A stretch of 32,000 nucleotides of DNA from Stappia sp. 28M-7 (GTDB taxonomy: Bacteria > Pseudomonadota > Alphaproteobacteria > Rhizobiales > Stappiaceae): NCBI RefSeq assembly GCF_014252955.1, contig NZ_JACMIA010000001.1, positions 1,974,258 to 2,006,257 of the forward strand, written 5' to 3'. Under the pieces are notes generated by a model that searched no databases, was not told the origin of the DNA, and saw only the letters and a list, made by a program, of their open reading frames with translations. Shown one piece after another: positions 2,044 through 31,130 of the stretch (positions within the stretch are counted from its first letter, which is position 1; the number at the start of each line of letters is the position of its first letter). The translations under genes were made by a program, and so were the position numbers.

Positions 2044-2048
2044 GCCTT

Positions 2049-3607: not shown

Positions 3608-3615
3608 TCGGGCGC

Positions 3616-3644
3616 GGGGCCTTTTCCTTTGTTGAAAAGGCCCC
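3616..3644 (+). terminator. 10-bp stem hairpin after the thiolase stop; probable terminator
   Basis: GGGGCCTTTT-(9 nt loop)-AAAAGGCCCC was read directly, 9 nt after the stop. There is no clear U-tract. Confidence 0.5.
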
Positions 3645-3705
3645 ATCTGCCTGTCGGTCGCTGCCCGCCGCGGATAGGACGGGTGGGGCGTTGCGTTGCC
3701 CGATC

Positions 3706-8701: not shown

Positions 8702-8736
8702 CCGGCAATATGACGGAGTTTCCGTCTATATGCCGG
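8702..8736 (-). other. Composite hairpin spanning the AraC-gene stop codon (6-bp outer stem, 4x4 internal loop, 6-bp inner stem)
   Basis: CCGGCA-ATAT-GACGGA-GTT-TCCGTC-TATA-TGCCGG was read directly. The stop codon (8726-8728 on the minus strand) lies inside it. No U-tract follows on the minus strand. Confidence 0.3.
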
Positions 8737-9730
8737 TTACCTCCAGCCGGTTGCGGCGGACAAAGTCGGAGGGCGTCATGCCGTATTCGCGCAGGAACAG
8801 CTGCGAGAATCGGCTCGGATTGGCATAGCCCACCGCCAGCGCCGTCTCGGTCACCGTCGCCCCGTCGCGCGCCAGCAGCGTGCGCGCCTCCTCCATCCGC
8901 GACTTCTGCAGGAAGCTGTAGACCGGCAGGCCGAACTGCTGGCGGAACCCGTCCTTCAGCCGCTTTTCGCTGAGGCCGACGCAGATCGCGAGGTCGTGGA
9001 TGGTCCAGCTGCGGTCGAGCTGGCGCAACAGCGTGTTCTTCGCCTCGTTGAGCTTGCGCGAGTCGCGCAGGATCTTCGTCTTCTGGCAGAACAGCGGCTC
9101 GCGCATCATCGAGATCGCCGCGGTCAGCAGGTCGAGGCAGCGCGCCTCGATCGCCAGGTCCTCGCAGCAGCGGTCGAGCCCGCTGGCCACCAGCCCGGCG
9201 GCCAGCGCGTCGATCATTTCCGTCGCCGGGAACCGGCCGACCCAGAACGAGCCGGCGGCGGCGACGGTCAGCGGATGGCCGCCGAGCGCCTGCTCGAACA
9301 GGGCCATCGCATCGAGCCGGCGCAGGAATGCCTCGCTCACGCGGATCTCGATGCCGCGGAAGCGCGTGTCCGCCGGCACGTCGTAGACCCCGCAAATCGG
9401 CGTCTTGGAAAAGATCATCAGTGCCGAGCGCGGATCGTAGTCCAGCCGCACCGGATGCGGGTCGCCGTCCAGCGCGCGCAGCATGCTGCTGCCGGTCGCG
9501 TGCTGCAGGATGACGATGGTCAGGCCCGGCGCCATGTTGGCCGTGCGGCGGAAGCGGTCCTGCAATTGCAGGTCATAGACGGACAGTTCAAGCCCGAGCC
9601 GGATGCCGAAGCGACGGAACTCTCCGTCGACCGCCGTCTCCGTCAGGCCGCTGTGGCTTGGCTGCCGCGCCGCGAGATCGAGCTCGCTGGCAGCCTGGCT
9701 CAAAGGGCGCTCTTCGATGTTCAGAGCCAT
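8726..9730 (-). CDS. AraC-family transcriptional regulator, probable cluster-situated regulator (same genomic role as YbtA/PchR)
   Basis: The 334-aa ORF has a C-terminal double-HTH AraC signature (WTIHDLAICVGLSEKRLKDGFRQQFGLPVYSFLQKSRMEEARTLL ... ALAVGYANPSRFSQLFLREYGMTPSDF). GGGAGAGG RBS lies upstream of ATG 9730. It is divergent from the PKS-NRPS operon. Confidence 0.88.
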   Translation of the reverse strand: MALNIEERPLSQAASELDLAARQPSHSGLTETAVDGEFRRFGIRLGLELSVYDLQLQDRFRRTANMAPGLTIVILQHATGSSMLRALDGDPHPVRLDYDPRSALMIFSKTPICGVYDVPADTRFRGIEIRVSEAFLRRLDAMALFEQALGGHPLTVAAAGSFWVGRFPATEMIDALAAGLVASGLDRCCEDLAIEARCLDLLTAAISMMREPLFCQKTKILRDSRKLNEAKNTLLRQLDRSWTIHDLAICVGLSEKRLKDGFRQQFGLPVYSFLQKSRMEEARTLLARDGATVTETALAVGYANPSRFSQLFLREYGMTPSDFVRRNRLEVTGI

Positions 9731-9857: not shown

Positions 9858-9874
9858 TTGACTGAAAAAGTCAA
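9858..9874. promoter_or_regulatory. Perfect palindrome TTGACT-GAAAA-AGTCAA; fits TGA-N9-TCA (RirA iron-responsive operator style); candidate metal-responsive operator
   Basis: Read directly in the lower-GC divergent intergenic region, 106 bp upstream of the PKS-NRPS ATG. TGA is at 9859-9861, N9 at 9862-9870, TCA at 9871-9873. The left arm also resembles a -35 hexamer. Confidence 0.35.
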
Positions 9875-9979: not shown

Positions 9980-11700
9980 ATGTCCGTTGTCTCGCCTGAG
10001 GTTCCCGCCGTCGAAACGCTGGTCGATGCCATTGCGCACTGGGCCGGGGAACGGGGGGAGGAGATCGCGCTCGACTTCCGCGCCCGCTCTGGCGCCGCGC
10101 CGGTGACGCTCACCTATGCGCAGCTGTCGGCGAGCGCCCGGGCGCTCGCCGCGCGGCTTTCGGAAAAGGGGAGCCGGGGCGAGCGGGTGCTGATCCTGCT
10201 GCCCTCCGGCATCGACTACGTGGTGGCGCTGCTGGGCTGCATGCAGGCCGGCTTCATCGGCGTTCCGGTCAACCTGCCGGGTCCCTCGCGGGTCCGCCGG
10301 GTGCTCGGCAAGGTCGGCCCGATAGCGGCAGACTGCCGGCCCGCCTTCATCGTCACCACTGAGGAGATCCGCCGCCAGTCGCAGGCCGACCTGGAGGCCT
10401 TCGCGCAGGAGGCCGGGGCTCGCGTCCTCATCCTCGATGCGCCGTGCGAGCGGTGCGCGTGGCAGGGTGATCCCCTTCGCGGCACGGACACCGCCTTCCT
10501 GCAATACACCTCTGGTTCCACCGGCGAGCCCAAGGGCGTGATCAACGGCCACGCGCCCCTGATGCGCAACCTGCGCTTCATCGCCCGCCTGCTGGCACCG
10601 AAAGAACGGCCCGTCGTCGTCAGCTGGCTTCCGCTCTATCACGACATGGGGCTGATCATGGGGGTGTTGGCGCCGCTGGTGGCCGGCGGCAAGGCCGTGG
10701 TCCTGTCGCCGACCTCCTTCGTCGCCGATCCACTCCACTGGCTTGAGGTGGCGTCGGCGGAAGGGGCGGGCATGATGCCGTGCCCGGCCTTCTCCATGGA
10801 TGCCTGCGTCGAGCGCTACGACGCTGCACGCTGCGCCGATCTCGATCTCAGCCGGGTGGAGAGCTTCATTCCCGCCGCCGAGCCGGTGCTGCCGCGCCAG
10901 GTCGCGGCCTTCCGCGACACCTTCGCCCCGCATGGGCTGAGGCCGGAGGCGATCCGCCCGGCCTACGGTCTTGCCGAGGCGACGCTGCTGGTGACCACCG
11001 GCTTCGAGCCCGCCGGCCCGCGCCATCTCGCCGTCGATACCGCCGCCCTGGAGGAGGGGCGCGTCGTTCCGGTCGCGGAGGCGGCGGCGGCTGCCTCGCG
11101 CATCTATGTCTCCAACGGCGCGGAGACGGACGGTCAAGACGTGCGGATCGTCGATCCGCAAACGCTGGAGACCCTGCCCGAAGGGCGGGTCGGCGAGATC
11201 TGGGTCGGCGGCGACGAGATCGCCTGGGGATACTGGGGCAACGAGGCGGCCAGCGCGGCGACCTTCCGTGCGGTTCCCGCCGACGGTGCGCCGGAGCATG
11301 CGTTCCTGCGCACCGGCGATCTCGGCTTCCTGCAGGACGGCCATCTCTATGTGACCGGCCGGCTCAAGGACATGATGATCCTGCGCGGCCAGTGCCACTA
11401 CCCCAACGACCTGGAGGCAAGTCTCGTCGGCGCGCATCCGGCCATCGTCGGCGGCGCAGCGGCGGCCTTCGCCGTCGAGGACGCACAGGGGCGCGAGGCG
11501 GTCGTGCTGGTGCAGGAGGTGCGCCGCGACGGATCCCTCGATACGGGCGAGGTCGAAAGCACCATCCGCGAGGTGATCGCGCGCGAGCACGGCCTGGCGC
11601 TCGCCGATGTTGTGCTCATCCGCAAGGGGACGTTGAAGCGCACCACCAGCGGCAAGGTCCGGCGGGCGGAGATGCGCCGCGCCTATCTTGCCGGCGAGCT
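9980..11700 (+). other. Domain: fatty acyl-AMP ligase (FAAL) loading domain
   Basis: Motifs: FLQYTSGSTGEPKGV (A3), SWLPLYHDMGLIMG (FAAL/FadD32-type motif), YGLAEATL, GDLGFLQDGHLYVTGRLKDMMILRGQCHYPNDLE. The domain is fused directly to a carrier domain. Confidence 0.85.
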
Positions 11701-14700
11701 GGTTCTTGCGGTGGCGCCCGTGGCCGACGAGCCGGCCTCCCGGCCGGCGCCGGCAGCGGACGGCTACCGCGCGCTGGTGGCGGAGATTGCCGCCCGCGCT
11801 CTCGGCCTCGGCTCGGCGCGCCGGATCGACCCGCAGGCGAGCCTTTTCGCTCTCGGCTTCGATTCCCTTGCCGCGACGCAGGCGATTGCCGCGCTCGAGG
11901 CCCGGCTCGGCCGCCAGCTGCCCGAAGGACTGCTCTTCGACCATCCGACGGTGGCATCGCTTGCCGACTGGCTGGCCCGCGCCGAACAGGCAGACAGCGA
12001 GCCTGCGCAGACGTCGGCCGCCTCCCGTGCCGATGCCCGAGCCGCATCCAGTTCCGCCCCGCGCGCCGAGCCGCTGGCGATTATCGGCCTGTCCTGCCTC
12101 TTTCCCGGAGGCGATGAGGACTTCGACGATCCCGCGCGCTTCTGGTCCTTCCTCATGGAGGGCGGCGATGCGGTGCGCCCGCTCAGCCCCGCGCGCTTTG
12201 CCCCGGAACCGGAGATCCCCGGCTTCGGTGCCTGCCTCACCCGCGTCGACGGGTTCGACGCAGCCTTCTTCGGCATGGGCGCGCGCGAGGCGATCAACAC
12301 CGATCCGCAGCAGCGCCTGCTGATGGAGGCCGCCTGGCATGCGCTGGAGGATGCGGGCATTCCCCCCTCAAGCCTTGCCGGCACGGATACTGGCGTCTTC
12401 ATCGGCATCGGCACGGGCGATTACGGCCACATTCCCTTCGCCACCGGCGACCGCTCCCACCTCGATCCCTATTACGGCACCGGCACGGCCTTTGCCGCCG
12501 CCGCCGGCCGGCTTTCCTTCTTCTTCGACTGGCACGGGCCGAGCCTTGCGGTCGACACGGCCTGCTCCGCCTCCCATGCCGCCGTTCACAGCGCCTGCCA
12601 GGCGCTGCGCCTTGGCGAATGCGGGGTGGCGCTGGCCGGCGGCGTCAAGCTGCAGATGTTGACCGAGATCGACGTGGTGCTGGCGCGCGCCGGCATGCTG
12701 GCCCCCGACGGGCGGTGCAAGACGTTCGATGCCTCGGCGGACGGCTATGTGCGCGGCGAGGGGCTCGGCATGGTGGTCCTGAAGCGCCTGTCCGACGCGC
12801 TGCGCGATGGCGACCCGATCCGGGCCGTCGTGCTGGAAAGCGTGCTGGCGCAGGACGGCGCCAGTGCCGGCCTGTCTGCGCCCAATGCCGCCGCGCAGCG
12901 CCGGATGATCGAGACGGCGCTGACGCGCGCCGGCCTGACGCCCGGCGATATCGACTATCTGGAGCTGCATGGCACCGGCACCCGGCTCGGCGATCCCATC
13001 GAATATCGCGCGGTGCGCGATGTCTTCGCCGGCCGGCCGCAGGACGATCCGCTCTATCTCGGCTCGGTGAAGACCAATATCGGCCATCTGGAAGCGGGAG
13101 CCGGCATCGCCGGCCTGATCAAGGCGGTGCTGGCGGTGGAGGCCGGGCAGATGCCGCCGCATCTCCACCTCAATGAGGTCAATCCGGAGATCGGCCTGGG
13201 CGAGATCCCGGCCGTGGTGCCGGACCGCGCGACCGACTGGCCGCGCCGGGGTTCCCTCCGGCGCGCCGGCGTCACCTCCTTCGGCTTTGCCGGCACCATC
13301 GGTCACATCCTGCTGGAACAGGCGCCAGAACAGGAGCCAGAACGGGCGTTGGAGCGCGCACAGGAGACCGAAGGGAGCGAAGCGGAGGGCAAGCCGCCGC
13401 TGCTCCTTGCCTTCTCCGCCCGCAGCCGCGAGGCGGCGGACGGCCTGCGCCGCGCCTTCGCCGAGCGCCTGTCGCAACCGGGCACAGACGCCCGCGCGCT
13501 GGTCAACGCGGCCGCCCATCACCGCGACCATGAGGCGGGGCACCGCATCGCCGTCGCCGCCGGCGATGCGGCGGGGCTCGTTGCCGAGCTGGAGCGCGCG
13601 GTCTGCGAGGAAAGTCCGGCTGCACCCGCCCGCGTCGCTTTCCTCTTCACCGGGCAGGGCGCGCAATATCCGGCCATGTGCCGGGGGCTCTACGAGGCCG
13701 AACCGGTCTTCCGCGAGGCCTTCGACCGCGCCGACGCTGCCCTGCAGCCGCATCTCGGCCGCTCGATCCGCGATCTCGTCTTCTCCGCCAGCGAGGACGA
13801 GCTTCGGCGCACGGAGTTTGCCCAGCCGGCGCTCTTCGCCGTCCAGTTCGCGCTGGCCCGGCTCTGGCGTGCCTTCGGCATCGAGCCCGCCGCCGTCATC
13901 GGCCACTCCATCGGCGAGTTCGCCGCTTTTGTTCATGCCGGGATGCTGGAGCTCAATGATGCAGCCCGCATCATCGCCCGTCGCGGCCGGTTGATGCAGG
14001 AGCTCCCCGAGGCCGGCGCGATGCTCGCCGTGCGCCTGCCCCAGGACGAGGCCGAGGCTCTTGCCGAAGAGCACGGCCTGTCGCTCGCCGCCGTCAACTC
14101 CTCCGCCGATGCGGTGCTTGCGGGAAGCGAGGACAAGGTGGACCGGCTCGCCGCCATGCTGGAGGGGCGGGGCGTCAGCGCCCGCCGCCTGCATGTCTCG
14201 CACGCTTTCCACTCGGCCTTGATGGAGCCGATGCTGGCGCCCTTTGCCGAGGTCGCCGGGGATATCGTTCTCGGCGATCCGCGCCTTCGGGTCTTCTCCA
14301 CCGTCACGGGGGCGGAACTGGAGCGGGCGCCCGGCGCCGACTACTGGGGCACCCAGGCGCGCCGCACCGTCCGCTATGCCGAGGCGCTCGCCCGCGCCTT
14401 CGAGGCCGGCTTCGACACCTTCGTCGAGATCGGCCCCCGGCCGGTGCTCACCATGCTGTCGCAGCGCGAGGCCCAGCACCACGATCTGACCGGCGCGCTG
14501 TTCCTGGCGAGCGCCGCGCCGGACGATGCCGGCGGCCTGATGCTGCGCCGCAGCCTTGCCGCGCTCTACCGGCGCGGCGTCGATGCCAATCGCGCGGCCG
14601 TGTTCCGGGGCGAGCGCGCGCGGCCCTCGCAGCTGCCGCTCTACCCTTTCGCGCACAAGTCCTATTGGCTCGACTACAGCGCCTCGCAGCCGACGCGTGC

Positions 14701-17700
14701 CGCCCTTCCGGCCCCGGGGCGCGACAGCTCCGGCGTGCTGCCGCTCTACCAGGTGGAGTGGGAGCAGGTCGAACTGCCCCCGGCTGCGCCCGCCGCCGCA
14801 TCTGTCCCCGGCGCTCCGCTGCTTGCCGTCGGCGGGTCGCCGGACCTTGTCCGCGCACTTCGCGCGGCCGCGCCGGGGCGGGAGATCGCCGCTTGCGGCA
14901 GCGATGAGCAATTCGCCGGAAATTCGGAACAGCCGATCGTCTGGCTCGATGGGTTCGGGGTCGAAGGGGAGGCCGCGGACCCTGCATCCTGCGTCTCGAA
15001 CTTGTGGAGGTTGATACGCCTTTCTCAAACCTTGCAGTCGACTTCGCAAAAATTCCGCATCCTTCTCCCGACCTGCGGAGCGCAGGGCGAAAACGGCACG
15101 AATGCGCCATTTCAGGCCGCATTCTGGGGGGCGGCGCGCTCGCTTTCGATCGAATGCCCGGATCTCCAGATCCTGCTTGTCGACATCGATCCGCGATGCG
15201 ATCCCGCCGGGATATTCACGGAGCTCCTGCCGCGCCTCGATGCCGTTTTCGAAGAGCAGGACATGCTGCAGGCGCGTGCCGACGGCTGGTTCTCGCCGCG
15301 CATAACGCCGCTCGAGGCCGCGGCCTCGCAAGATACCGGCGACCTGCCGGTCGACGGGGCATATCTCGTGTGCGGCGGGGCCGGCGCGACCGGTGCCCAT
15401 GTGGTCGAGTGGCTGGCTGCAAGGGGCGTGCGGCACATCGTCGTCACCGCCCGCAGTGCGCCGGGACCAAGGGTCCGCGCCGCCCATGAGCGTTTGCGGC
15501 TTGCCGGCGTCGACATTCGCCATGTCGAGGCGGATGTCGCCGACGAGGCGGCGATGGCCGCCGTTCTTGCCGGCATCGACGGGGACAACGTGCCGCTGCG
15601 CGGCGTCTTCCATTGCGCCGGCATAGGCCTTTTCGACACGCTCGAAGAGCTTGGCGAGGAGAATTTCTCGGCCGTTTTGCGCTCCAAGCTGGAGGGCTCG
15701 GCGGTGCTCCACCGCCTGACCGAGCACCGCACCGATCTTGCGGTCTTCGTGCTGTTTTCCTCCATCTCCGGCGTGTGGGGATCGCGCCTCCAGATCCATT
15801 ACGGCGCCGCCAATGCCTACCAGGATGCCCTTGTGCGCTCGCGCCGCGCCCGTGGTCTGCCCGGCTTGTCCATCGCCTGGGGGCCGTGGGGCGGCAAGGG
15901 CGGGCTCTCCGACCTGGAGGATAACCTTCTCGACCTGCTGCGGCGGGCCCGCATCCACAAGTTCGAACCGGCACGCGGCATCGCCACGCTGAACCGGCTC
16001 GTCGCGGGACCCGGCGGCAATGTCGTCGCCGTCGATGTGGAATGGCCGGCCTTCGCGCCGCTCTATCGCGCCTTCGGGCGCAGCGACTTGCTGGCCCGTG
16101 TCGCGCCGGCGCTTGCCGGGCCGGTGGAGGGCGAGCATCCGGACTGGTCGCGCCTGTCGGAAGACGAGCGTCGCCAGACGGTCGGCGCTTTCGTCGATGC
16201 GGCGCTGCGCGAGGTGCTGAAGGTCGATGCCGGGGTTCTGACCGACGAGGCGGACCTGATCGGCCTCGGCCTCGATTCCATTCTGGTGATGGACCTTGCC
16301 CGGATCGTCACCCGCGATCTTGGTCTTGCCTGCCCCTTGCGGGCGATCTTCGAGAACGCGACGCCTGGCCGGCTGCGCGCCCACCTCGTCGACCTCGCCG
16401 GAGAGGCGGAGCCGGCTCCAGGCGGCGGGGACACGTTGCCCGGCAGCGGCGGGCAGGGCCTGATCCTTGCCGATCCCAATGCCCGCCACGAGCCGTTCCC
16501 TCTCACCGAATTGCAATACGCCTACTGGGTGGGGCGCGATCCGAGACATGTCCTCGGGGGCATCGCCTGCCACGCCTATCTTGAGACCGAGCCGGATACC
16601 CCCTTCGACGTGACCCGTCTGGAGGATGCCTGGAACCTGCTGATCGCCCGCCACGACGCGCTTCGGCTGGTCGTCGACGACAGCGGCCGCCAGCGCATTC
16701 TGGAAGAGGTTCCGCGCTATCGCATCGAGGTAACGGATCTTTCCAACGCGGATCCGGACCGCATCGCCTATCACCTGCTGGAGATGCGCGAGACCCTGTC
16801 GCATCAGGTGCTCGATCCCTCGGCCTGGCCGATGTTCGACATCCGCCTGACGCGCATGCCCGGCGGCCGCGACCGCCTGCACATTTCCATCGACATGCTT
16901 ATCAACGATGCGATGAGCAGCCAGATCCTCTGGCAGGAATGGCAGGCGCTCTACCTTGCAGGCTCGCCCGAGGCCGCCGGCCTGCCGCCCTTCACCATCT
17001 CCTTCCGCGATTATGTCCTGGCCAAATCGGCCCCGGATGCGGAGCGCAAACGGCGCCAGGAGATCGACCGCGCCTACTGGATGGCGCAGCTCGACGAGCT
17101 GCCGCAAGGTCCGCAGCTGCCGCTGGCGCGTGCGCCGGAACATATCGGAGTGCCTCGCTTTTCCCGGCTTCAGGCAGGTCTCGACGCGTCCCGCTGGGAG
17201 GCGCTGAAGGCGCAGGCCCGCGCGGTCGGGGTGACCCCGGCTGGCCTTCTCGTCGGCGTCTTCGGCGAGGTGCTCGCCGCCTGGAGCGACCAGGCGCGCT
17301 TCTCGCTCAACCTGACGATCTTCGACCGTCTCGCCCTCCACGAGGACGTGCCCCGGCTGGTCGGCGACTTCACCTGCCTGACCCTGCTTCCGCTCGACTT
17401 CGGTACGGCCATGCCGCTCGGCGAGCGGTTGCGCGAGGTGCAGGGGCGCATGTTCGAGGCGCTGGAACACCGGACCTTCAGCGCGGTCGACGTGCTGCGC
17501 GAGTTGAACCGTGGCGGCTCCGGCCGGCAGTTTGCAGCGCCCGTGGTCTTCACCAGCCAGCTCGGCATGCAGGACCCCACCAAGGGCACGTCGGAAGGAG
17601 ACGTGCTCGGCCGGCTTGTCCACGGCATCACGCAGACGCCGCAGGTCTGGCTCGACCATCAGGCGGGCGAGCAGGACGGCGGGCTCGTCTACAACTGGGA

Positions 17701-20700
17701 CGTGGTCGACGGGCTGTTCCCGGCGGGACTCGTGGAAGGGATGTTCACGGCCTATGGGGCGGTGCTGGAGCGGCTGGCCGACGAGGCGCAGGCATGGGGC
17801 GAGCCGGTCGGCGACCTCAGGCCCGAGGACCAGAGAAAGGTGCGCCGTGCCGTCAACGAGACAGCACGCGAGTTGCCGCTCGACCTGCTCGATGCCCCGT
17901 TCTTCCGCAACGCGCAGGCCAGGCCGCAAGCTTTGGCGCTGATTTCCGGGGTGAGGTCCTACTCCTACGGCGAACTGGCCGGCTGGGTCGGCAAGCTTGC
18001 CGGCGGGCTCCGTCAGGCCGGCATCCGTCATGGCGAGCGTGTCGCCGTGCTGATGGAGAAGGGCCCCGAGCAGGCCGCCGCCTGCCTCGCCATCCTGTCG
18101 CAGGGCGGCGTGTATGTCCCCGTCGATCCGGCGATCCCCTCGCAGCGCTTTGCCAGCATCGTGGAGACGAGCGGGATCCGGCTCGCATTGACGCAGACGC
18201 GGCTGATCGGGCGGCTGCCGGAATTTTCCGGGAAACTCATCCCCGCCGACGAAGATGCCTGCAGGGACTTCGAGGAAGCGGGTCCGGCGAGCGGGCGCGC
18301 TCTCTCCGACGAGGCCTATGTCATCTACACCTCCGGCTCGACCGGAACGCCCAAGGGCGTGCTGATCGACCATCGCGGGGCCTCGAATACGGTCCTCGAC
18401 ATCAACGCCCGCTTCGGCGTCGATGAAAACGACCGCATCTTCGGTTTCTCGGCGCTCGGCTTCGACCTGTCGGTCTACGATCTCTTCGGCGGTTTCGCGG
18501 CCGGAGCGGCGCTCGTCCTGCCCGACCCGGAGGGAACGCACGATCCCTCGCACTGGGCGGAGCTGATCGCCCGCCACGGCGTCAGCGTGTGGAATTCCGT
18601 CCCGGCGGTCTGCGACCTGCTGCTCGGCGAGACGGAGGCAGACCTTTCCAGCTTGCGCCTCGTCCTGCTGTCAGGCGACTGGGTGCCGCTGAAACTGCCG
18701 GCGATCCTGCGCGAGCGGGTGCCGGGCGCACGGCTCATCGCCATGGGCGGGGCGACCGAGGCCTCGATCTGGTCCAACTGGTTCGAGGTGGAGGAGGTGC
18801 GTCCCGGCTGGACGTCGATCCCGTACGGCACACCGTTGTCCAACCAGAGCTACCGGGTGCTCGATACGCGCCTGCGCGATCGACCCGACTGGGTGATCGG
18901 CGACCTGCATATCGGGGGCGTCGGTCTTGCGCTCGGCTATGAGGGGGACAAGGAGCGGACCGAAGCCGCGTTCATCCGGCACCCGGACGGCGAGCCGCTC
19001 TACCGGACCGGCGACATGGCGCGCTACTGGCCGGACGGGGTCATCGAGTTCCTGGGCCGCCGCGATACCCAGGTGAAGATCGCCGGCCATCGCATCGAAC
19101 TCGGGGACATCGAGGCCGCTCTGGCCGGTCATGCGGGGATAAGGGACGCGGTGGTCGATGTCGTGGGCTCGCAGGAGCGCGGACGCCGGCTGGTCGCATG
19201 GCTTCGGCTCGAAGGCACTCACCCGGACTTCCACGAGGACCTGACCGCCGATCCCGTGGAGGCGGAAGCGATTGCCGCGTCCCTCGGGGATACGCTTGCC
19301 GGCGGCATGGCAGCCGTCGCCTTGCCGAAGGGCAGGACCGGTGCCTATGCGGACTGGCAGGCCGGGCTTGCGGCACGGATGCTTGCGGATCTCTTCGCCG
19401 GAGCGGGGCTGCTGGGTGAGGGGGAGAAGTCCTTCGACAAGCAGGACGCGGAGACCGCACTTGGACTTGCGGCGGAGTTCAGCCCGCTGCTCCCGCGCTG
19501 GCTCGCCCATCTGGAGCGGCTCGGCGTGGTGCGACGCGAGGGCGAGCGGTTCGCGCCCGGCGTGCTGCCGCTATCCTGGGGGGACATGGAGCGCCGGGCC
19601 GGCGAGGCGGGGCTCGCCCCCGCTCTGCTCTCCCGCGTCAAGGCGCTGGTGCCGGAGCTTGCCTCCGTGCTGCGCGGCGAGACGGATCCGCTGGAACTCT
19701 TCTACGCGGATGGGGCCGATCTCAGTCCCGAACGTCTGGCCCGGCTGCATCCTTGCGCGGTCGATGCCCATCGCCGGATCGGCGAAACGCTCGCGGCCAT
19801 GGCCGAGACCGCCGGTCGGCCCTTGCGCGTTCTCGAGATCGGCGCCCGCGCCGGCGTTGCCACCCGCGACTGGCTGGCGGGGCTGGTAGAGGCGGCGGGG
19901 GACCTGCCTGCGCACACGCGTGTCGATCTCGTGCTTGCTGATCCCTCGCCCTTGCTGCTGGCAGACGCCCTGCGCGACCTGCCGGGCGGGCTCCAGGCGG
20001 CAACCGTGGTGTTCGATCCCGAAGGCACCGTGCCGCCGGATCTCGAACCCAACAGCTTCGATGTCGTGCTTGCCTTCAACGCCCTGCACCGGGCGCGCGA
20101 TGTCGGTACCGTGCTGGCTGCCGTCCGCTCGCTGCTGAAACCGGCGGGGCACCTGCTGGCGGTGGAACTGACCGTCAACGGTCCGATGATCGACCTGACG
20201 GCCGGCGTGATCGAACGCGGCTTTGCCGGACTGGCGGACGGACGCAAGCAGAGCGGGCTGCCGTTGATGGCCGCTTCGGCCTGGACGCAGAGCCTCGATG
20301 AGGCCGGCTTCGACGCGGCCATGGCTCTCGACCCTGCCGATAACGGCGATCTCGCCGTGCTGGCCGCCCGCAACGCCGATCCGGCGGTGCGCTTCCGTCC
20401 CGAACGGGTGATCCGCCATCTGGAAGGACTGCTGCCGGCCTATATGGTTCCGCGCCAGGTGGTGCCGCTGGCCGCGCTGCCGCTGTCGGCCAACGGCAAG
20501 GTGGACCGCAAGCGCCTGCCGCTGCCGGGCGAGGTCGCGCCGGAGCAACAGGCGCTCGCCGCCCCGCGCAGCGAGAGCGAACGCCGGCTTGCCGCGATCT
20601 GGAGCGAGCTCCTCGGTCATGCGGTCGGGCGGGATGCCAATTTCTTCGCGGCCGGGGGCGACAGCCTGATCGCCGTGCGGATGGCCGAACGCATTCGCGC

Positions 20701-22561
20701 CGTCTTCGGACACAAGGTGAAGCTGCGCACCATCTTCGCGATGCAGGACCTTGCCGAACTCGCCGCCCATCTCGACGGGTTCGGCGACAGCGGTCAGGAC
20801 ATGCAGGACGATGCGCCGGTGCCGCTTGTCGTCGATCCGCACGCTCAGTTCGAGCCGTTCCCGCTGACCGACGTGCAGCAGGCCTATTTCATCGGCCGCC
20901 AGCCCGTGTTCCCGCTGGGCGGGGTGTCGACCCACATCTTCGCGGAAATTGAGGTGAGCGACCTGTCCGCAGAAGCGCTGGGCTGGGCGTGGAACCGGCT
21001 GGTGCAGCGTCACGGCATGTTGCGGGCGGTGATCGACGAGGCGGGCAACCAGCGGATCCTGCCGCAGGTTCCGGTCTTCTCGGCAATGACGTCGGACCTG
21101 ACGGAAGGCGACGAGGCAGCGCTCGAGCATTGGCTGGAGCGTCAGCGCCGGGAGATGAGCCACCGGGTCTACGACACGGCGCAATGGCCGCTGTTCGACG
21201 TGCGCATGGCCAAGCATGGCGGCGGCGTCAGGTTGCTGGTCAGTCTCGACAATCTCGTCTGCGACGGGCGCAGCATGGTCATGATCCTGTCCGAATGGGC
21301 AGCGCTTGCGCGCGACCGCGCAACGGTCCTGCCGCCGCTGGACCTGTCGTTCCGCGATGTGGTGCTGCACTGGGAGCGCGAGGAAAGCTCGCCCGCCCAT
21401 GCGGCGAGCCTGGAACACTGGTTCGCCCGCCTGCCGGACTTGCCGCCGGCGCCGAGCCTGCCCCTGCAGCGCAAGCCCGAGGACCTGACGCCGCCGCGCT
21501 TTGCACGCCTTGCCGGAACGCTCTCCCATGACGACTGGGCAGCCTTCCGCGCCAATGCGGCGGCGGCCGGCCTGTCTCCCAACGCGGCGCTTCTCTCCGC
21601 CTATGCGGCGAGCCTTCGCGGCGGCGGTGGCGGCGACCGCTTCAGTCTGAACCTGACGCTGTTCCGCCGCGATCCGATCCACCCGCAGATCGACCTTTTG
21701 GTCGGCGACTTCACCTCGCTGTTGCTGGTGCCGTTCGAGGCGCAGGCGGGAGATGGCTTTGCCGCTGCCGCCCGGCGCCTGCAGGACCGTCTGATGGAGG
21801 ATCTGGAGCATGCCCGCGTTTCGGCGGTGCGGGTGATGCGCGAGGCGGCAAGGCGCGGCACGGATGCGCAGGCCCTCGCCATTCCGGTGGTGTTCACCAG
21901 CGGCGTCGGCGTCGACAACACCGCATCGGACGGCAGCACGGCGGACTGGCTGGGGCGCTTCACCGGCGGCATCACCCAGACGCCGCAGGTGTGGATCGAC
22001 CACCAGGTCGTCGACCGGGACGGCGAGCTCGCCTTCAACTGGGACCATGTCGAAGGCCTGTTCGATGCCGAATGGATCGAAGGCGTGTTCAACGCCTATT
22101 GCCGGATGCTGGCCGATCTCGCCGCCGACCCGGGCGCGTGGCAGGCCCTGTTGCCCGCCGTCGATCCCGTCGCTGCCGGCGCCTTGCCGCACGCAGCCGA
22201 TGACGAGCCGGAGGCGGAACCGGCCGTTGCAGTCGATGCGCCTGTCGATGGCGAGATTGCCGACCTGATTGCCGATCTCCTGGCGCAGGAACTGGGCATC
22301 GGCGCGCCGGACCGGGAGGCGAGCTTCTTCGAGCTGGGGGCAACGTCGCTGACCTTGCTGCGGCTGCACCAGAAGCTGCGCAAGGCGTTGGCGCGCAATT
22401 TCCCCGTGGTCGCCATGTTCGCCCACCCTTGCGTCCAGGCACTCGCCGGGCACCTCGGGGCGCCGGAGCCGGCCCTTGCCGGCGAGGCCGGGCGTGCCGG
22501 CACGCGCCGGGCGGCGGGCCGGGCCAATGCCGAGCGCCGGCGCCGGGTGCGCGAGCTGTGA
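9980..22561 (+). CDS. Hybrid PKS-NRPS megasynthase: FAAL-ACP-KS-AT-KR-ACP-Cy-A(embedded MT-like)-PCP-Cy-PCP
   Basis: This is a single 12.6-kb open frame. The start is placed at ATG 9980 (MSVVSPEVPAVETLVDAIAHWAG...), with GGAG 7 nt upstream. All domain core motifs were read in the translation (see the domain features). Stop TGA at 22559-22561. Confidence 0.95.
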   Translation: MSVVSPEVPAVETLVDAIAHWAGERGEEIALDFRARSGAAPVTLTYAQLSASARALAARLSEKGSRGERVLILLPSGIDYVVALLGCMQAGFIGVPVNLPGPSRVRRVLGKVGPIAADCRPAFIVTTEEIRRQSQADLEAFAQEAGARVLILDAPCERCAWQGDPLRGTDTAFLQYTSGSTGEPKGVINGHAPLMRNLRFIARLLAPKERPVVVSWLPLYHDMGLIMGVLAPLVAGGKAVVLSPTSFVADPLHWLEVASAEGAGMMPCPAFSMDACVERYDAARCADLDLSRVESFIPAAEPVLPRQVAAFRDTFAPHGLRPEAIRPAYGLAEATLLVTTGFEPAGPRHLAVDTAALEEGRVVPVAEAAAAASRIYVSNGAETDGQDVRIVDPQTLETLPEGRVGEIWVGGDEIAWGYWGNEAASAATFRAVPADGAPEHAFLRTGDLGFLQDGHLYVTGRLKDMMILRGQCHYPNDLEASLVGAHPAIVGGAAAAFAVEDAQGREAVVLVQEVRRDGSLDTGEVESTIREVIAREHGLALADVVLIRKGTLKRTTSGKVRRAEMRRAYLAGELVLAVAPVADEPASRPAPAADGYRALVAEIAARALGLGSARRIDPQASLFALGFDSLAATQAIAALEARLGRQLPEGLLFDHPTVASLADWLARAEQADSEPAQTSAASRADARAASSSAPRAEPLAIIGLSCLFPGGDEDFDDPARFWSFLMEGGDAVRPLSPARFAPEPEIPGFGACLTRVDGFDAAFFGMGAREAINTDPQQRLLMEAAWHALEDAGIPPSSLAGTDTGVFIGIGTGDYGHIPFATGDRSHLDPYYGTGTAFAAAAGRLSFFFDWHGPSLAVDTACSASHAAVHSACQALRLGECGVALAGGVKLQMLTEIDVVLARAGMLAPDGRCKTFDASADGYVRGEGLGMVVLKRLSDALRDGDPIRAVVLESVLAQDGASAGLSAPNAAAQRRMIETALTRAGLTPGDIDYLELHGTGTRLGDPIEYRAVRDVFAGRPQDDPLYLGSVKTNIGHLEAGAGIAGLIKAVLAVEAGQMPPHLHLNEVNPEIGLGEIPAVVPDRATDWPRRGSLRRAGVTSFGFAGTIGHILLEQAPEQEPERALERAQETEGSEAEGKPPLLLAFSARSREAADGLRRAFAERLSQPGTDARALVNAAAHHRDHEAGHRIAVAAGDAAGLVAELERAVCEESPAAPARVAFLFTGQGAQYPAMCRGLYEAEPVFREAFDRADAALQPHLGRSIRDLVFSASEDELRRTEFAQPALFAVQFALARLWRAFGIEPAAVIGHSIGEFAAFVHAGMLELNDAARIIARRGRLMQELPEAGAMLAVRLPQDEAEALAEEHGLSLAAVNSSADAVLAGSEDKVDRLAAMLEGRGVSARRLHVSHAFHSALMEPMLAPFAEVAGDIVLGDPRLRVFSTVTGAELERAPGADYWGTQARRTVRYAEALARAFEAGFDTFVEIGPRPVLTMLSQREAQHHDLTGALFLASAAPDDAGGLMLRRSLAALYRRGVDANRAAVFRGERARPSQLPLYPFAHKSYWLDYSASQPTRAALPAPGRDSSGVLPLYQVEWEQVELPPAAPAAASVPGAPLLAVGGSPDLVRALRAAAPGREIAACGSDEQFAGNSEQPIVWLDGFGVEGEAADPASCVSNLWRLIRLSQTLQSTSQKFRILLPTCGAQGENGTNAPFQAAFWGAARSLSIECPDLQILLVDIDPRCDPAGIFTELLPRLDAVFEEQDMLQARADGWFSPRITPLEAAASQDTGDLPVDGAYLVCGGAGATGAHVVEWLAARGVRHIVVTARSAPGPRVRAAHERLRLAGVDIRHVEADVADEAAMAAVLAGIDGDNVPLRGVFHCAGIGLFDTLEELGEENFSAVLRSKLEGSAVLHRLTEHRTDLAVFVLFSSISGVWGSRLQIHYGAANAYQDALVRSRRARGLPGLSIAWGPWGGKGGLSDLEDNLLDLLRRARIHKFEPARGIATLNRLVAGPGGNVVAVDVEWPAFAPLYRAFGRSDLLARVAPALAGPVEGEHPDWSRLSEDERRQTVGAFVDAALREVLKVDAGVLTDEADLIGLGLDSILVMDLARIVTRDLGLACPLRAIFENATPGRLRAHLVDLAGEAEPAPGGGDTLPGSGGQGLILADPNARHEPFPLTELQYAYWVGRDPRHVLGGIACHAYLETEPDTPFDVTRLEDAWNLLIARHDALRLVVDDSGRQRILEEVPRYRIEVTDLSNADPDRIAYHLLEMRETLSHQVLDPSAWPMFDIRLTRMPGGRDRLHISIDMLINDAMSSQILWQEWQALYLAGSPEAAGLPPFTISFRDYVLAKSAPDAERKRRQEIDRAYWMAQLDELPQGPQLPLARAPEHIGVPRFSRLQAGLDASRWEALKAQARAVGVTPAGLLVGVFGEVLAAWSDQARFSLNLTIFDRLALHEDVPRLVGDFTCLTLLPLDFGTAMPLGERLREVQGRMFEALEHRTFSAVDVLRELNRGGSGRQFAAPVVFTSQLGMQDPTKGTSEGDVLGRLVHGITQTPQVWLDHQAGEQDGGLVYNWDVVDGLFPAGLVEGMFTAYGAVLERLADEAQAWGEPVGDLRPEDQRKVRRAVNETARELPLDLLDAPFFRNAQARPQALALISGVRSYSYGELAGWVGKLAGGLRQAGIRHGERVAVLMEKGPEQAAACLAILSQGGVYVPVDPAIPSQRFASIVETSGIRLALTQTRLIGRLPEFSGKLIPADEDACRDFEEAGPASGRALSDEAYVIYTSGSTGTPKGVLIDHRGASNTVLDINARFGVDENDRIFGFSALGFDLSVYDLFGGFAAGAALVLPDPEGTHDPSHWAELIARHGVSVWNSVPAVCDLLLGETEADLSSLRLVLLSGDWVPLKLPAILRERVPGARLIAMGGATEASIWSNWFEVEEVRPGWTSIPYGTPLSNQSYRVLDTRLRDRPDWVIGDLHIGGVGLALGYEGDKERTEAAFIRHPDGEPLYRTGDMARYWPDGVIEFLGRRDTQVKIAGHRIELGDIEAALAGHAGIRDAVVDVVGSQERGRRLVAWLRLEGTHPDFHEDLTADPVEAEAIAASLGDTLAGGMAAVALPKGRTGAYADWQAGLAARMLADLFAGAGLLGEGEKSFDKQDAETALGLAAEFSPLLPRWLAHLERLGVVRREGERFAPGVLPLSWGDMERRAGEAGLAPALLSRVKALVPELASVLRGETDPLELFYADGADLSPERLARLHPCAVDAHRRIGETLAAMAETAGRPLRVLEIGARAGVATRDWLAGLVEAAGDLPAHTRVDLVLADPSPLLLADALRDLPGGLQAATVVFDPEGTVPPDLEPNSFDVVLAFNALHRARDVGTVLAAVRSLLKPAGHLLAVELTVNGPMIDLTAGVIERGFAGLADGRKQSGLPLMAASAWTQSLDEAGFDAAMALDPADNGDLAVLAARNADPAVRFRPERVIRHLEGLLPAYMVPRQVVPLAALPLSANGKVDRKRLPLPGEVAPEQQALAAPRSESERRLAAIWSELLGHAVGRDANFFAAGGDSLIAVRMAERIRAVFGHKVKLRTIFAMQDLAELAAHLDGFGDSGQDMQDDAPVPLVVDPHAQFEPFPLTDVQQAYFIGRQPVFPLGGVSTHIFAEIEVSDLSAEALGWAWNRLVQRHGMLRAVIDEAGNQRILPQVPVFSAMTSDLTEGDEAALEHWLERQRREMSHRVYDTAQWPLFDVRMAKHGGGVRLLVSLDNLVCDGRSMVMILSEWAALARDRATVLPPLDLSFRDVVLHWEREESSPAHAASLEHWFARLPDLPPAPSLPLQRKPEDLTPPRFARLAGTLSHDDWAAFRANAAAAGLSPNAALLSAYAASLRGGGGGDRFSLNLTLFRRDPIHPQIDLLVGDFTSLLLVPFEAQAGDGFAAAARRLQDRLMEDLEHARVSAVRVMREAARRGTDAQALAIPVVFTSGVGVDNTASDGSTADWLGRFTGGITQTPQVWIDHQVVDRDGELAFNWDHVEGLFDAEWIEGVFNAYCRMLADLAADPGAWQALLPAVDPVAAGALPHAADDEPEAEPAVAVDAPVDGEIADLIADLLAQELGIGAPDREASFFELGATSLTLLRLHQKLRKALARNFPVVAMFAHPCVQALAGHLGAPEPALAGEAGRAGTRRAAGRANAERRRRVREL
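11760..11985 (+). other. Domain: ACP (loading)
   Basis: LFALGFDSLAATQAI, with the phosphopantetheinyl Ser codon at 11864-11866. Confidence 0.85.
12068..13325 (+). other. Domain: ketosynthase KS1 (catalytic C-H-H intact)
   Basis: PLAIIGLSCLFPG, DPQQRLLME, VDTACSAS (Cys codon 12563-12565), ELHGTGTRLGDPIE, KTNIGHLEAGAG. Confidence 0.92.
13634..14460 (+). other. Domain: acyltransferase, malonyl-CoA-type motifs
   Basis: FLFTGQGAQY, GHSIGEFAA (Ser codon 13907-13909), and a HAFH motif (14201-14212) that is associated with malonyl rather than methylmalonyl specificity. Confidence 0.88.
15050..15900 (+). other. Domain: ketoreductase KR1 (catalytic Tyr present)
   Basis: YLVCGGAGATGAHVVEWL (Rossmann), FSSISGVWGSRLQIHYGAANAY (Tyr codon 15800-15802). 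Confidence 0.85.
16165..16400 (+). other. Domain: ACP
   Basis: LIGLGLDSILVMDL, Ser codon 16277-16279. Confidence 0.85.
16490..17800 (+). other. Domain: heterocyclization (Cy1)
   Basis: The Cy N-terminal motif FPLTELQYAYWVGR is present, and DxxxxDxxS (DMLINDAMS, 16892-16918) replaces the HHxxxDG of a normal C domain. Also QTPQVWLDHQ. Confidence 0.9.
17888..20530 (+). other. Domain: adenylation domain, cysteine-type specificity pocket, interrupted between A8 and A9/A10
   Basis: AYVIYTSGSTGTPKGV, FDLSVYDLFG, VWNSVPA, LVLLSGDW, GGATEASIWS, YRTGDMARY, GRRDTQVKIAGHRIELGDIE ... LPAYMVP, ANGKVDRKRLP. Manual alignment to GrsA numbering gives the pocket DLYNLSMIWK, versus the Cys consensus DLYNLSLIWK as I recall it. 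Confidence 0.85.
19215..20400 (+). other. Domain: methyltransferase-like insertion (about 395 aa) inside the A domain, with an atypical SAM motif I
   Basis: LRVLEIGARAGVAT (G-A-R-A-G instead of GxGxG), FDVVLAFNALHRA, LLKPAGHLLAVE. The position between A8 and A9 matches the embedded MT of PchF and the MT-like insert of HMWP2. Confidence 0.7.
20575..20790 (+). other. Domain: PCP1
   Basis: FFAAGGDSLIAVRM, Ser codon 20663-20665. Confidence 0.88.
20852..22140 (+). other. Domain: heterocyclization (Cy2)
   Basis: FPLTDVQQAYFIGR, DNLVCDGRS (21248-21274), QTPQVWIDHQ. Confidence 0.9.
22245..22458 (+). other. Domain: PCP2 (C-terminal)
   Basis: FFELGATSLTLLRL, Ser codon 22346-22348. It is followed by an Arg-rich C-terminal tail. 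Confidence 0.8.
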
Positions 22562-30370: not shown

Positions 30371-31130
30371 ACCGGTCGCAGAGCGCACCCGCAGCGCCTA
30401 TTCCGCCCTCGACGAGGCTTTCGTGCAGGCCGGGCTCGACGGGCACGCGCATTTCCTCAACTGGGGCTATGAGCCGATTGCCGGGCTTGCCGACGGTGCC
30501 GTTCCCGGACTTGTGCAGCCGGGCGCCAACGAGGCGTGCGAGCGTCTCGTCGCCGAACTGGTGGGTCCCGTCTCGCTCGACGGTCTGCGGGTTGCGGACA
30601 TCGGCTGCGGCCGTGGTGGCGCGCTGGATGTCGTCCTGCGCCGGTTCCGCCCACTGTCGGCCATCGGGCTCGATCTCAGCGCCGACAACATCGCCGGGGC
30701 CCGGCGGTTGCTCTCCGGGCGACGCGTCCGCCTGCAGGTGGCCGATGCCTGTGCGCTGCCGCTGGGGGAGGCCAGCCAGGATGTCGTCCTCAACCTGGAA
30801 TCCTCCGGGGCCTATCCGGACATGGGCGCCTTCCTGCAGCACGTCCGGCGCGTGCTGGCGCCCGGCGGGTTGTTCCTGCACGGCGACCTCTGGCCGTCCG
30901 AGCTGGTCGGCCCGTTCATCGAGACGATGGAGGAGATGGGCTTCGTGCTGGAGAGCCTGCGCGACGTGACGCGGCAGGTGTGCCGCGCGCGCGACCGGAT
31001 GCCCGCCGGGCTGATGTCGCGCCTTGCCGGCAGCAGGGGCGCGGCAGAGGTGGAGGACTACTTCGCCGCACCCGGCTCGGCCATGTACGACTGCCTCGAC
31101 CGGGGCGCCATCGCCTATCTGCTTTGCCGC
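30360..31130 (+). other. Domain: class I SAM methyltransferase
   Basis: HFLNWGYEP, VADIGCGRGGALD (intact GxGxG, about 30591-30629), VVLNLES, LAPGGLFLHGD. Confidence 0.8.

What the first reader, a model, noticed from the sequence alone, without database searches (positions are those of the whole stretch)
9980..16400. FAAL-primed KS-AT-KR-ACP module fused in front of an HMWP2-like bis-heterocyclising NRPS
The order FAAL-ACP-KS-AT-KR-ACP-Cy-A-PCP-Cy-PCP is, as I recall it, the order reported for MicC of the Ralstonia micacocidin pathway. There a fatty-acid-primed single PKS module acts iteratively to build 6-pentylsalicylate in place of salicylate.

The module here has no DH, ER, PT or TE, which leaves two readings. 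In one, it acts iteratively to make an alkyl-salicylate cap. In the other, a single malonyl extension plus ketoreduction gives a 3-hydroxyacyl cap on the first thiazoline. Either outcome is unusual for this chelator class, and the sequence alone cannot decide between them.
Basis: partly seen in the sequence, partly recalled or inferred. Interest (0 to 1): 0.75.

Follow-up and report, generated by a model that had tools for sequence, protein, structure and literature searches.

The report
Published agrochelin synthase AgrA (MicC-type)

Summary
One gene (9980-22561, + strand, 4193 aa) encodes FAAL-ACP-KS-AT-psiKR/KR-ACP-Cy-A(with an MT-like insert)-PCP-Cy-PCP. All catalytic motifs are intact and no DH, ER, PT/TH or TE is present. 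The span 9980-16400 is the FAAL-plus-PKS half.

Exact-sequence look-ups show the protein is MBC2859117.1, AgrA of Stappia sp. 28M-7. Its neighbours are MBC2859115, 116, 118, 119 and 120. That is the minimal agrochelin gene cluster (MIBiG BGC0002764) described in AEM 2026 (PMC12997852). The same strain yields agrochelin II (C23H34N2O4S2), which carries a 2-hydroxy-6-pentylphenyl-thiazoline cap.

AgrA aligns end to end with a Ralstonia solanacearum MicC ortholog (47.7 % identity, one BLASTP alignment). Its KS sits in a clade of MicC-type KSs with bootstrap 100. The cluster has no salicylate synthase or salicyl-AMP ligase.

The iterative reading is therefore the supported one: hexanoate plus three malonyl units and one ketoreduction give 6-pentylsalicyl-S-ACP. 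The 3-hydroxyacyl reading is contradicted by the product. Verdict: correct call, already known, low interest. Side observations concern AgrB, a conserved palindrome upstream of agrA, and natural relatives lacking KR or AT.

The parts
8726..9730 (-). agrR, an AraC-family regulator transcribed divergently from agrA (334 aa)
   Evidence: Pfam HTH_18/HTH_AraC. Exact match to MBC2859116.1 of Stappia sp. 28M-7.
9858..9874 (.). Perfect palindrome TTGACTGAAAAAGTCAA in the agrR-agrA intergenic region; candidate iron-responsive operator
   Evidence: Identical at the same relative position in four other Stappia loci that are only about 88 % identical overall. It occurs once in the window. Its resemblance to the RirA-box form TGA-N9-TCA rests on my own knowledge and was not tested.
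9980..22561 (+). agrA, whole gene (4193 aa): FAAL-ACP-KS-AT-psiKR/KR-ACP-Cy-A(MT-like)-PCP-Cy-PCP
   Evidence: Exact match to MBC2859117.1.
9980..11719 (+). FAAL domain (aa 1-580), the starter fatty-acid adenylating domain
   Evidence: The 15 best PDB hits (down to 3pbk) are FAAL-type enzymes, although the top three chains (7r7e-g) are deposited only as 'Polyketide synthase'; 7r7f scores 367 bits. The best NCBIfam models are fatty-acid--AMP ligases. Pfam finds a DIP2-like C-terminal domain. An insertion of about 26 aa follows YGLAEAT when compared with the Cys A domain.
11777..11974 (+). ACP1 (aa 600-665, Ser629 in GFDSL), carrier for the starter acyl group
12068..13171 (+). KS (aa 697-1064; Cys862, His in HGTGT at 997, His in NIGH at 1033-1036)
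   Evidence: Lies in the MicC-type KS clade with bootstrap 100.
13640..14533 (+). AT (aa 1221-1518; GHSIG with Ser1310; HAFH at 1408, the malonyl-type motif). It is the only AT in the window.
14735..16084 (+). psiKR plus catalytic KR (aa 1586-2035; GGAGATG at 1800, Lys1903, Ser1927/1928, Tyr1941)
   Evidence: Structure model and Foldseek search.
16175..16384 (+). ACP2 (about aa 2066-2135, Ser2100 in GLDSI), carrier of the growing and aromatised chain
16487..17809 (+). Cy1 heterocyclisation domain (DxxxxD at 2305)
17900..20560 (+). A domain interrupted by an MT-like (epimerase-type) domain at 19766-20314. That domain carries the Stappia-specific 8-aa insertion AGDLPAHT.
   Evidence: The insertion is described in PMC12997852.
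20561..22459 (+). PCP1 (Ser3562), Cy2 (DxxxxD at 3757) and PCP2 (Ser4123)
22597..29256 (+). agrB (2219 aa): KS, no AT, C-MT, KR with His at the Tyr position, two ACPs, C-terminal Cy-like domain
   Evidence: Exact match to MBC2859118.1.
29246..30370 (+). agrC, an Irp3/YbtU-type thiazolinyl imide reductase (374 aa)
   Evidence: Exact match to MBC2859119.1.
30360..32000 (+). agrD, methyltransferase plus thioesterase (546 aa)
   Evidence: Exact match to MBC2859120.1.

Best explanation
The region encodes the N-terminal half of AgrA, the MicC-type hybrid PKS-NRPS of the agrochelin II pathway in Stappia sp. 28M-7.

Proposed mechanism:
1. The FAAL domain adenylates hexanoate (with some tolerance for C5 and C7 acids) and loads it on ACP1. 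This is inferred from MicC and from the product.
2. The single KS-AT-KR-ACP2 module is used three times with malonyl units. The KR acts once, on one beta-keto group.
3. Aldol closure, dehydration and enolisation give 6-pentylsalicyl-S-ACP2.
4. No thioesterase or TH domain is needed, because the aryl thioester is passed directly to Cy1.
5. The HMWP2-like half (Cy-A-PCP-Cy-PCP) adds two cysteines as thiazolines.
6. AgrB, AgrC and AgrD then finish the molecule.

Shown here: identity of the gene, the architecture, intact catalytic residues, orthology to MicC, and absence of any salicylate-supplying gene.
Taken from the literature: the product structure from this strain, and MicC acting as an iterative PKS.
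Inferred: the timing of the ketoreduction and how ring closure is catalysed.
For: - Exact identity of AgrA and of five neighbouring proteins to Stappia sp. 28M-7 accessions MBC2859115-120. These are the accessions listed for the minimal agrochelin cluster in Table S14 of PMC12997852.
- The product of that strain is m/z 467.205. Its NMR connectivity matches agrochelin/massiliachelin, and its +/-14 Da analogues localise to the salicylate part.
- Massiliachelin NMR shows a phenol with an n-pentyl chain attached to a thiazoline.
- AgrA is collinear over its full length with Ralstonia MicC at 47.7 % identity. Per-domain identities are 49-65 % for FAAL, KS, AT, KR, Cy1, A and Cy2.
- KS1 lies in the MicC-type clade with bootstrap 100, which also contains Ralstonia-type P0041 and Massilia P0008.
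- Catalytic residues of KS, AT and KR and the carrier serines are intact.
- No DH, TH or PT domain is hidden.
- No salicylate synthase or salicyl-AMP ligase occurs in the window or in the published cluster table.
- The literature describes MicC as an iterative PKS that makes 6-pentylsalicylate (PMC4797705), by three malonyl extensions of hexanoate (PMC10291242), with C6:0 activation by the FAAL shown in vitro (PMC11837247).
Against: - The link between this cluster and agrochelin II in strain 28M-7 rests on architecture and comparative genomics. The paper reports no knockout or heterologous expression.
- Iteration has been shown experimentally only for Ralstonia MicC, which shares 47.7 % identity.
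- By sequence, KS-AT resembles non-iterative modular units most closely: CurL 665 bits and DEBS 581 bits, against MAS 491, LovB 398 and CTB1 355.
- KS1 is only modestly closer to clade members (57-66 % outside the Alphaproteobacteria) than to the KSs of proteins with an olefin-synthase-like (Ols-type) domain set (50-54 %).
Confidence: 0.93

Rival explanations
1. The PKS module acts once. Hexanoyl (or another acyl) plus one malonyl unit plus ketoreduction gives a 3-hydroxyacyl cap on the first thiazoline, as in ordinary FAAL-primed lipoinitiation or olefin-synthase-type modules.
For: The domain set FAAL-ACP-KS-AT-KR-ACP is the same as that of the hits carrying sulfotransferase and hydrolase Pfam domains, which I read as single-pass olefin-synthase-type (Ols) proteins. 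KS-AT is most similar to non-iterative modular PKSs.
Against: - The metabolite of this strain is C23H34N2O4S2 with an aromatic 2-hydroxy-6-pentylphenyl unit. A 3-hydroxyacyl cap would give a different formula and no phenol.
- KS1 groups with MicC-type KSs and not with Ols-type KSs.
- Without the PKS there is no other source of the phenolate cap in the cluster.
Confidence: 0.03
2. The agr locus is not the source of agrochelin II. The PKS half is bypassed or inactive, and the aryl cap is supplied from elsewhere, for example free salicylate as in pyochelin.
For: The assignment of cluster to compound in PMC12997852 is bioinformatic only. Trace features matching pyochelin were reported in the same extracts.
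Against: - All catalytic and carrier residues of the PKS half are intact.
- There is no aryl carrier domain and no salicylate-activating enzyme. ACP2 sits exactly where HMWP2 carries its aryl carrier domain.
- antiSMASH found only one such cluster in the genome.
- The same architecture tracks pentyl-salicylate products in Ralstonia and Massilia.
Confidence: 0.03

Closest known systems
AgrA (MBC2859117.1), agrochelin synthase 1 of Stappia sp. 28M-7, MIBiG BGC0002764 (PMC12997852)
   Same: Identical sequence of 4193 aa. The flanking genes are also identical. The 8-aa insertion in the MT-like domain is present.
   Different: Nothing; it is the same gene. The paper does not dissect the PKS half in detail. 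It attributes a Tyr-to-His KR substitution to 'AgrA/MicC', whereas in the sequence that substitution is in AgrB-type KRs.
MicC of the Ralstonia solanacearum micacocidin pathway (iterative PKS fused to an NRPS)
   Same: Same domain order and end-to-end collinear alignment at 47.7 % identity. Same KS clade. Same companion genes: an AT-less second PKS, a thiazolinyl imide reductase, and an MT/TE protein.
   Different: Ralstonia has an extra NRPS (MicH) that adds a third thiazoline, and its gene order differs. The Stappia MT-like domain has the 8-aa insertion. The comparison used the ortholog from strain SL3103, not the biochemically studied GMI1000 protein.
MicC homolog RS02200 of Massilia sp. 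NR 4-1 (massiliachelin)
   Same: Same assembly-line logic, and a product with the same constitution as agrochelin. A Massilia sp. MB5 homolog (P0008) shares 47 % identity and falls in the same KS clade.
   Different: The products differ in stereochemistry. The NR 4-1 protein itself was not available for comparison.
HMWP2 (Irp2) of yersiniabactin and PchE of pyochelin
   Same: The C-terminal half, Cy-A(MT-like)-PCP-Cy-PCP with a single Cys-activating A domain.
   Different: In HMWP2 an aryl carrier domain is loaded with salicylate made by YbtS and activated by YbtE (established knowledge). Here a FAAL-PKS makes the aryl group in cis on ACP2.
6-methylsalicylic acid synthase (partially reducing iterative PKS)
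   Same: Same chemical logic: a starter plus three malonyl units and one ketoreduction give a 6-alkylsalicylate (PMC4797705).
   Different: 6-MSAS has a TH/DH-like domain and releases free acid. AgrA/MicC has none and hands the thioester to an NRPS. Its KS-AT looks like a modular cis-AT type by sequence.
Proteins with an olefin-synthase (Ols)-like domain set: FAAL-ACP-KS-AT-KR-ACP-ST-TE
   Same: Identical first six domains; 34-37 % identity over 99 % of the query for most of these hits (P0116: 38 % over 74 %).
   Different: These are single-pass modules followed by a sulfotransferase and a TE. Their KSs lie outside the MicC clade, at 50-54 % identity. The Ols label was inferred from their Pfam domain lists only.

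Membership tests
MicC-type FAAL-primed iterative PKS-NRPS (micacocidin/agrochelin/massiliachelin) | N-terminal fatty acyl-AMP ligase with the FAAL-type insertion, fused to an ACP | tested here: met
   The 15 best PDB hits (down to 3pbk) are FAAL-type enzymes. NCBIfam FAAL models score 367-420 bits against 159 bits for the best full-length match to an acyl-CoA ligase model, NF004837. An insertion of about 26 aa follows YGLAEAT. ACP1 carries the Ser of its DSL motif at residue 629.
MicC-type FAAL-primed iterative PKS-NRPS (micacocidin/agrochelin/massiliachelin) | A single KS-AT-KR-ACP module with intact catalytic residues and no DH, ER, TH/PT or TE | tested here: met
   Pfam. Motifs Cys862/His/His, GHSIG, HAFH, GGAGATG, Lys1903 and Tyr1941. 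The model of residues 1526-2065 is a plain psiKR+KR didomain.
MicC-type FAAL-primed iterative PKS-NRPS (micacocidin/agrochelin/massiliachelin) | Direct fusion to Cy-A(MT-like)-PCP-Cy-PCP | tested here: met
   DxxxxD motifs at 2305 and 3757.
MicC-type FAAL-primed iterative PKS-NRPS (micacocidin/agrochelin/massiliachelin) | Full-length collinear homology to Ralstonia MicC, and KS in the same clade | tested here: met
   A single BLASTP alignment, 13-4189 against 11-4224, at 47.7 % identity. KS clade of 33 sequences with bootstrap 100.
MicC-type FAAL-primed iterative PKS-NRPS (micacocidin/agrochelin/massiliachelin) | Cluster context: thiazolinyl imide reductase, HMWP1-like PKS and MT/TE present; no salicylate synthase or salicyl-AMP ligase | tested here: met
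   for the window. Genes beyond position 32000 are known only from Table S14 of PMC12997852.
MicC-type FAAL-primed iterative PKS-NRPS (micacocidin/agrochelin/massiliachelin) | Iterative use of the module to yield a 6-alkylsalicyl thioester | not testable with these tools
   Supported indirectly by the published product of this strain and by literature on MicC. There is no enzymology for AgrA.
Agrochelin gene cluster of Stappia (MIBiG BGC0002764) | Sequence identity to the deposited proteins and the same gene order | tested here: met
   Exact matches to MBC2859115-120. Gene order and lengths equal Table S14.
Agrochelin gene cluster of Stappia (MIBiG BGC0002764) | Eight-residue insertion in the MT-like epimerisation domain | tested here: met
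   AGDLPAHT is present in the window and an equivalent 8-residue insertion (AAGEPART) is present in Stappia WLB 29. No insertion is present in Ralstonia, Massilia, Rhizobium, Rhodopseudomonas, Methylobacterium, Erwinia and the other aligned relatives.
6-MSAS-type partially reducing iterative PKS | KS-AT-TH(DH-like)-KR-ACP architecture with a TH domain for release | tested here: not met
   There is no TH/DH domain. The best KS-AT matches are modular PKSs. AgrA works like 6-MSAS but is not a member of that family.

The most novel reading that the evidence does not exclude
No TH, PT or DH domain exists, so ring closure and aromatisation of the ACP2-bound tetraketide must be catalysed by a domain not known for that job: the KR/psiKR, the KS, or the downstream Cy1. 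In addition, the lone AT of AgrA would also serve the AT-less AgrB module in trans. Either point would be a new catalytic role within a known pathway. My evidence neither shows nor excludes them.
Probability: 0.25. Interest if true: 0.45.

Novelty: already known. Interest (0 to 1): 0.1.

Why it matters
It matters mainly as a calibration point. A reader working from raw sequence correctly recognised a MicC-type lipo-aryl starter module.

The biology is published. The gene is agrA of the agrochelin II producer, and the alkyl-salicylate cap is a known variant of the yersiniabactin/pyochelin chelator class, with antimycoplasma and anti-staphylococcal relevance.

The residual scientific value lies in open mechanistic details: how aromatisation happens without a TH or PT domain, and how a module that looks modular by sequence is programmed to iterate exactly three times. 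The natural KR-less and AT-less relatives found here could help probe these questions.

Tried and rejected
- **Protein search with the whole PKS half.** It returned no full-length MicC-type proteins and no named Ralstonia protein.
- **Second protein search with the psiKR-KR-ACP2 stretch.** It gave only short generic KR fragments and no Ralstonia protein. Unproductive.
- **Genome-contig scan.** The two peptide patterns missed Ralstonia. MicC was obtained instead from a 'plasmid' record through tblastn.
- **The MicC ortholog obtained (strain SL3103).** It has an in-frame loss of about 36 aa covering the KR glycine motif. I therefore used the Ralstonia-type fragment P0041 (88 % identical) for the KR comparison.
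- **The look-up of encoding contigs with AgrC.** It found nothing. The exact-sequence cluster look-up did work.
- **Kreutzer 2011 (PMC3165373).** Not held. Kage 2013 could not be read, so statements about MicC enzymology are cited second-hand or marked as my own knowledge.
- **Using KS/KS-AT similarity to call 'iterative' versus 'modular'.** Rejected as uninformative. The best PDB matches are modular (CurL, DEBS), although the chemistry is iterative.
- **A hidden DH/TH/PT between AT and KR.** Considered and rejected on Pfam and structure evidence.
Full report
**What is there**

The window is about 70 % G+C. The long ORF listed from 9905 has its plausible start at the ATG at 9980, preceded by a GGAG-like site. 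It runs to 22561 and encodes 4193 aa.

Pfam gives AMP-binding plus a DIP2-like C-terminal domain, PP-binding, KS, AT, KR, PP-binding, Condensation, an AMP-binding domain with an embedded methyltransferase-like domain, PP-binding, Condensation, PP-binding.

**Motifs**

| Domain | Residues or motifs found |
|---|---|
| KS | Cys862 (DTACS), HGTGT at 997, NIGH at 1033 |
| AT | GHSIG (Ser1310), malonyl-type HAFH at 1408 |
| KR | GGAGATG at 1800, Lys1903, Ser1927/1928, Tyr1941 (HYGAAN) |
| Carrier serines | 629, 2100, 3562, 4123 |
| Cy1 and Cy2 | DxxxxD at 2305 and 3757 |

**FAAL call**

- The 15 best PDB matches (down to 3pbk) are FAAL-type enzymes: 7r7e-g (deposited only as 'Polyketide synthase'), FadD32, FadD23, FadD28, 3kxw and 3pbk. 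Acyl-CoA ligases come far behind.
- The best NCBIfam models are fatty-acid--AMP ligases.
- Compared with the Cys A domain of the same protein, the FAAL has about 26 extra residues directly after the YGLAEAT motif. That is where the FAAL-specific insertion lies (own knowledge, Arora et al. 2009).

**No hidden domain**

Pfam finds nothing in the AT-to-KR gap even at E <= 1. An AlphaFold model of residues 1526-2065 (pLDDT 82.5, pTM 0.83) matches ordinary psiKR+KR didomains of modular PKSs over about 490 columns (5xwv, E 1.8e-34, TM 0.83 on the target). The statement 'no DH, ER, PT or TE' is confirmed.

**Whose gene it is**

- A scan of species-representative genomes found three Stappia genomes at 93-95 % protein identity and 87-89 % nucleotide identity.
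- A literature search found PMC12997852 (AEM 2026), which describes the agrochelin cluster of Stappia 28M-7.
- Its Table S14 lists the same gene order and the same protein lengths as the window: 705, 376, 334, 4193, 2219, 374 and 546 aa.
- Exact-sequence look-ups then showed that the window's proteins are MBC2859115.1, 116.1, 117.1 (AgrA), 118.1, 119.1 and 120.1 of Stappia sp. 28M-7.
- The eight-residue insertion in the MT-like domain, which the paper reports as Stappia-specific, is present as AGDLPAHT.

The window is therefore the published locus of the producing strain.

**Relation to MicC**

A Ralstonia solanacearum mic locus was recovered from a record in the plasmid collection. AgrA aligns with its 4231-aa MicC ortholog in one BLASTP alignment, residues 13-4189 against 11-4224, at 47.7 % identity.

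Per-domain identities:

| Domain | Identity to MicC ortholog |
|---|---|
| FAAL | 53 % |
| KS | 65 % |
| AT | 49 % |
| KR | 50 % |
| Cy1 | 58 % |
| A | 61 % |
| Cy2 | 52 % |

In a neighbour-joining tree of 167 KS domains (408 columns, 100 bootstraps), KS1 falls in a clade of 33 KSs with bootstrap 100. Apart from a few contig-end fragments, these come from proteins in which a FAAL-primed KS is fused to Cy-type NRPS domains. The clade includes the Ralstonia-type fragment P0041 (88 % identical to SL3103 MicC) and Massilia sp. MB5 (P0008). KSs from proteins with an olefin-synthase-like (Ols-type) domain set and other FAAL-primed KSs lie outside it. Identity to KS1 is 57-99 % inside the clade and at most 57 % outside, with Ols-type KSs at 50-54 %.

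About 25 species representatives carry full-length collinear homologs. They span Alpha-, Beta- and Gammaproteobacteria.

**Which of the two readings**

The iterative reading is supported.

- The strain's metabolite, agrochelin II, has m/z 467.205 (C23H34N2O4S2). Its NMR connectivity equals that of agrochelin and massiliachelin.
- The massiliachelin NMR shows a phenol with an n-pentyl chain bound to a thiazoline.
- Analogues at +/-14 Da localise to the salicylate part, which fits relaxed starter choice by the FAAL.
- No salicylate synthase or salicyl-AMP ligase is present in the window or in the published cluster table. The PKS is therefore the only source of the aryl cap.
- The literature describes MicC as an iterative PKS that makes 6-pentylsalicylate without a TH domain (PMC4797705), by three malonyl extensions of hexanoate (PMC10291242), with in-vitro data for C6:0 activation (PMC11837247).
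- That the KR is required for aromatisation (Kage et al. 2013) is my own recollection. I could not read that paper.

A 3-hydroxyacyl cap is incompatible with the formula and with the aromatic signals.

One caveat remains. The cluster-to-compound link in 28M-7 is bioinformatic, and AgrA itself has no enzymology.

**A point about method**

By sequence, KS-AT is closest to non-iterative modular units: CurL 665 bits and DEBS 581 bits. Iterative enzymes score lower: MAS 491, Pks13 466, LovB 398, CTB1 355. A generic 'iterative clade' test would therefore have pointed the wrong way. Only membership of the MicC-specific clade is informative.

**Mechanism, with status**

1. FAAL loads hexanoate on ACP1 (inferred from MicC data).
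2. KS, AT and ACP2 perform three malonyl extensions (literature for MicC, inferred here).
3. The KR reduces one beta-keto group, by analogy with 6-MSAS. The timing is not established here.
4. C2-C7 aldol closure and aromatisation give 6-pentylsalicyl-S-ACP2. The catalyst is unknown.
5. Cy1 takes the thioester directly. This explains why no TE or TH domain is needed (inference).

**Verdict**

The iterative branch is right. The feature is already known, both as a family (micacocidin 2011/2013, massiliachelin 2019) and as this very gene (2026). Interest is low.

Noticed in passing
window 22597-29256 (agrB); also L038:6474-13516 and the downstream PKS genes of L001-L028: AgrB has no AT domain (Pfam finds none even at E <= 1). 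AgrA's AT is the only AT in the window, and in the 46-kb Ralstonia mic locus the only AT hit is MicC's. AgrB's two tandem ACPs (Ser1597, Ser1681) are therefore probably malonylated in trans, perhaps by the AgrA AT.
   Followed up: partly
window 22597-29256 (agrB KR, motif GQGAHAIAN) versus agrA KR (HYGAAN, Tyr1941): The AgrB-type KR has His at the catalytic Tyr position in every homolog examined (more than 25 loci). The AgrA/MicC-type KR always keeps the Tyr. PMC12997852 attributes the Tyr-to-His change to 'MicC' and 'AgrA'. In the sequence it belongs to the second PKS (AgrB and its Ralstonia counterpart).
   Followed up: yes
window about 27990-29256 (C-terminus of agrB) and 30360-32000 (agrD): AgrB ends in a Cy-like condensation domain (DxxxxD at residue 1897) with no A domain or PCP after it. 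AgrD is MT plus TE with no detectable carrier domain. This looks like a split and partly decayed HMWP1 terminus, which fits agrochelin lacking the third thiazoline.
   Followed up: partly
window 9858-9874: A perfect palindrome TTGACTGAAAAAGTCAA lies about 105 nt upstream of the agrA start. It is identical in four other Stappia loci that are otherwise about 88 % identical, and it occurs once in the window. It has the TGA-N9-TCA form of rhizobial RirA iron-responsive operators (own knowledge, untested).
   Followed up: partly
L039:14818-26115 (Haematospirillum jordaniae plasmid NZ_CP014527.1, WP_066137149.1); also L022, L023: A natural homolog in the same KS clade has FAAL-ACP-KS-AT-ACP-Cy-A(MT)-PCP-Cy-PCP with the whole psiKR/KR missing. 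If its module also iterates, it would be predicted to give a dihydroxy-alkylbenzoyl (resorcylate-type) cap.
   Followed up: partly
P0040 (3406 aa, NCBI, unnamed): Another clade member has FAAL-ACP-KS-ACP-Cy-A(MT)-PCP-Cy-PCP with neither AT nor KR. It is 55 % identical to AgrA over FAAL-ACP-KS.
   Followed up: partly
L038:19971-32666 (R. solanacearum SL3103, CP022791.1): This strain's MicC ortholog lacks about 36 residues that include the KR NADPH-binding glycine motif, compared with the 88 %-identical Ralstonia-type fragment P0041. This is either a strain-specific in-frame deletion or an assembly artefact. The mic locus also sits on a 2.1-Mb record labelled as a plasmid.
   Followed up: partly
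loci L004, L005, L017; hits H1-H4: Full-length MicC/AgrA-type genes are spread widely: Methylobacterium, Rhodopseudomonas palustris BisB18, Rhizobium (including a 1.2-Mb R. rhizoryzae replicon, where no gene is listed under the match in the PLSDB gene table), and plasmids of Burkholderia gladioli BSR3, Undibacterium and Serratia symbiotica. Many Erwinia, Pantoea and Winslowiella genomes also carry one.
   Followed up: no
window 3550-4728: [quoted passage not shown]
   Followed up: no
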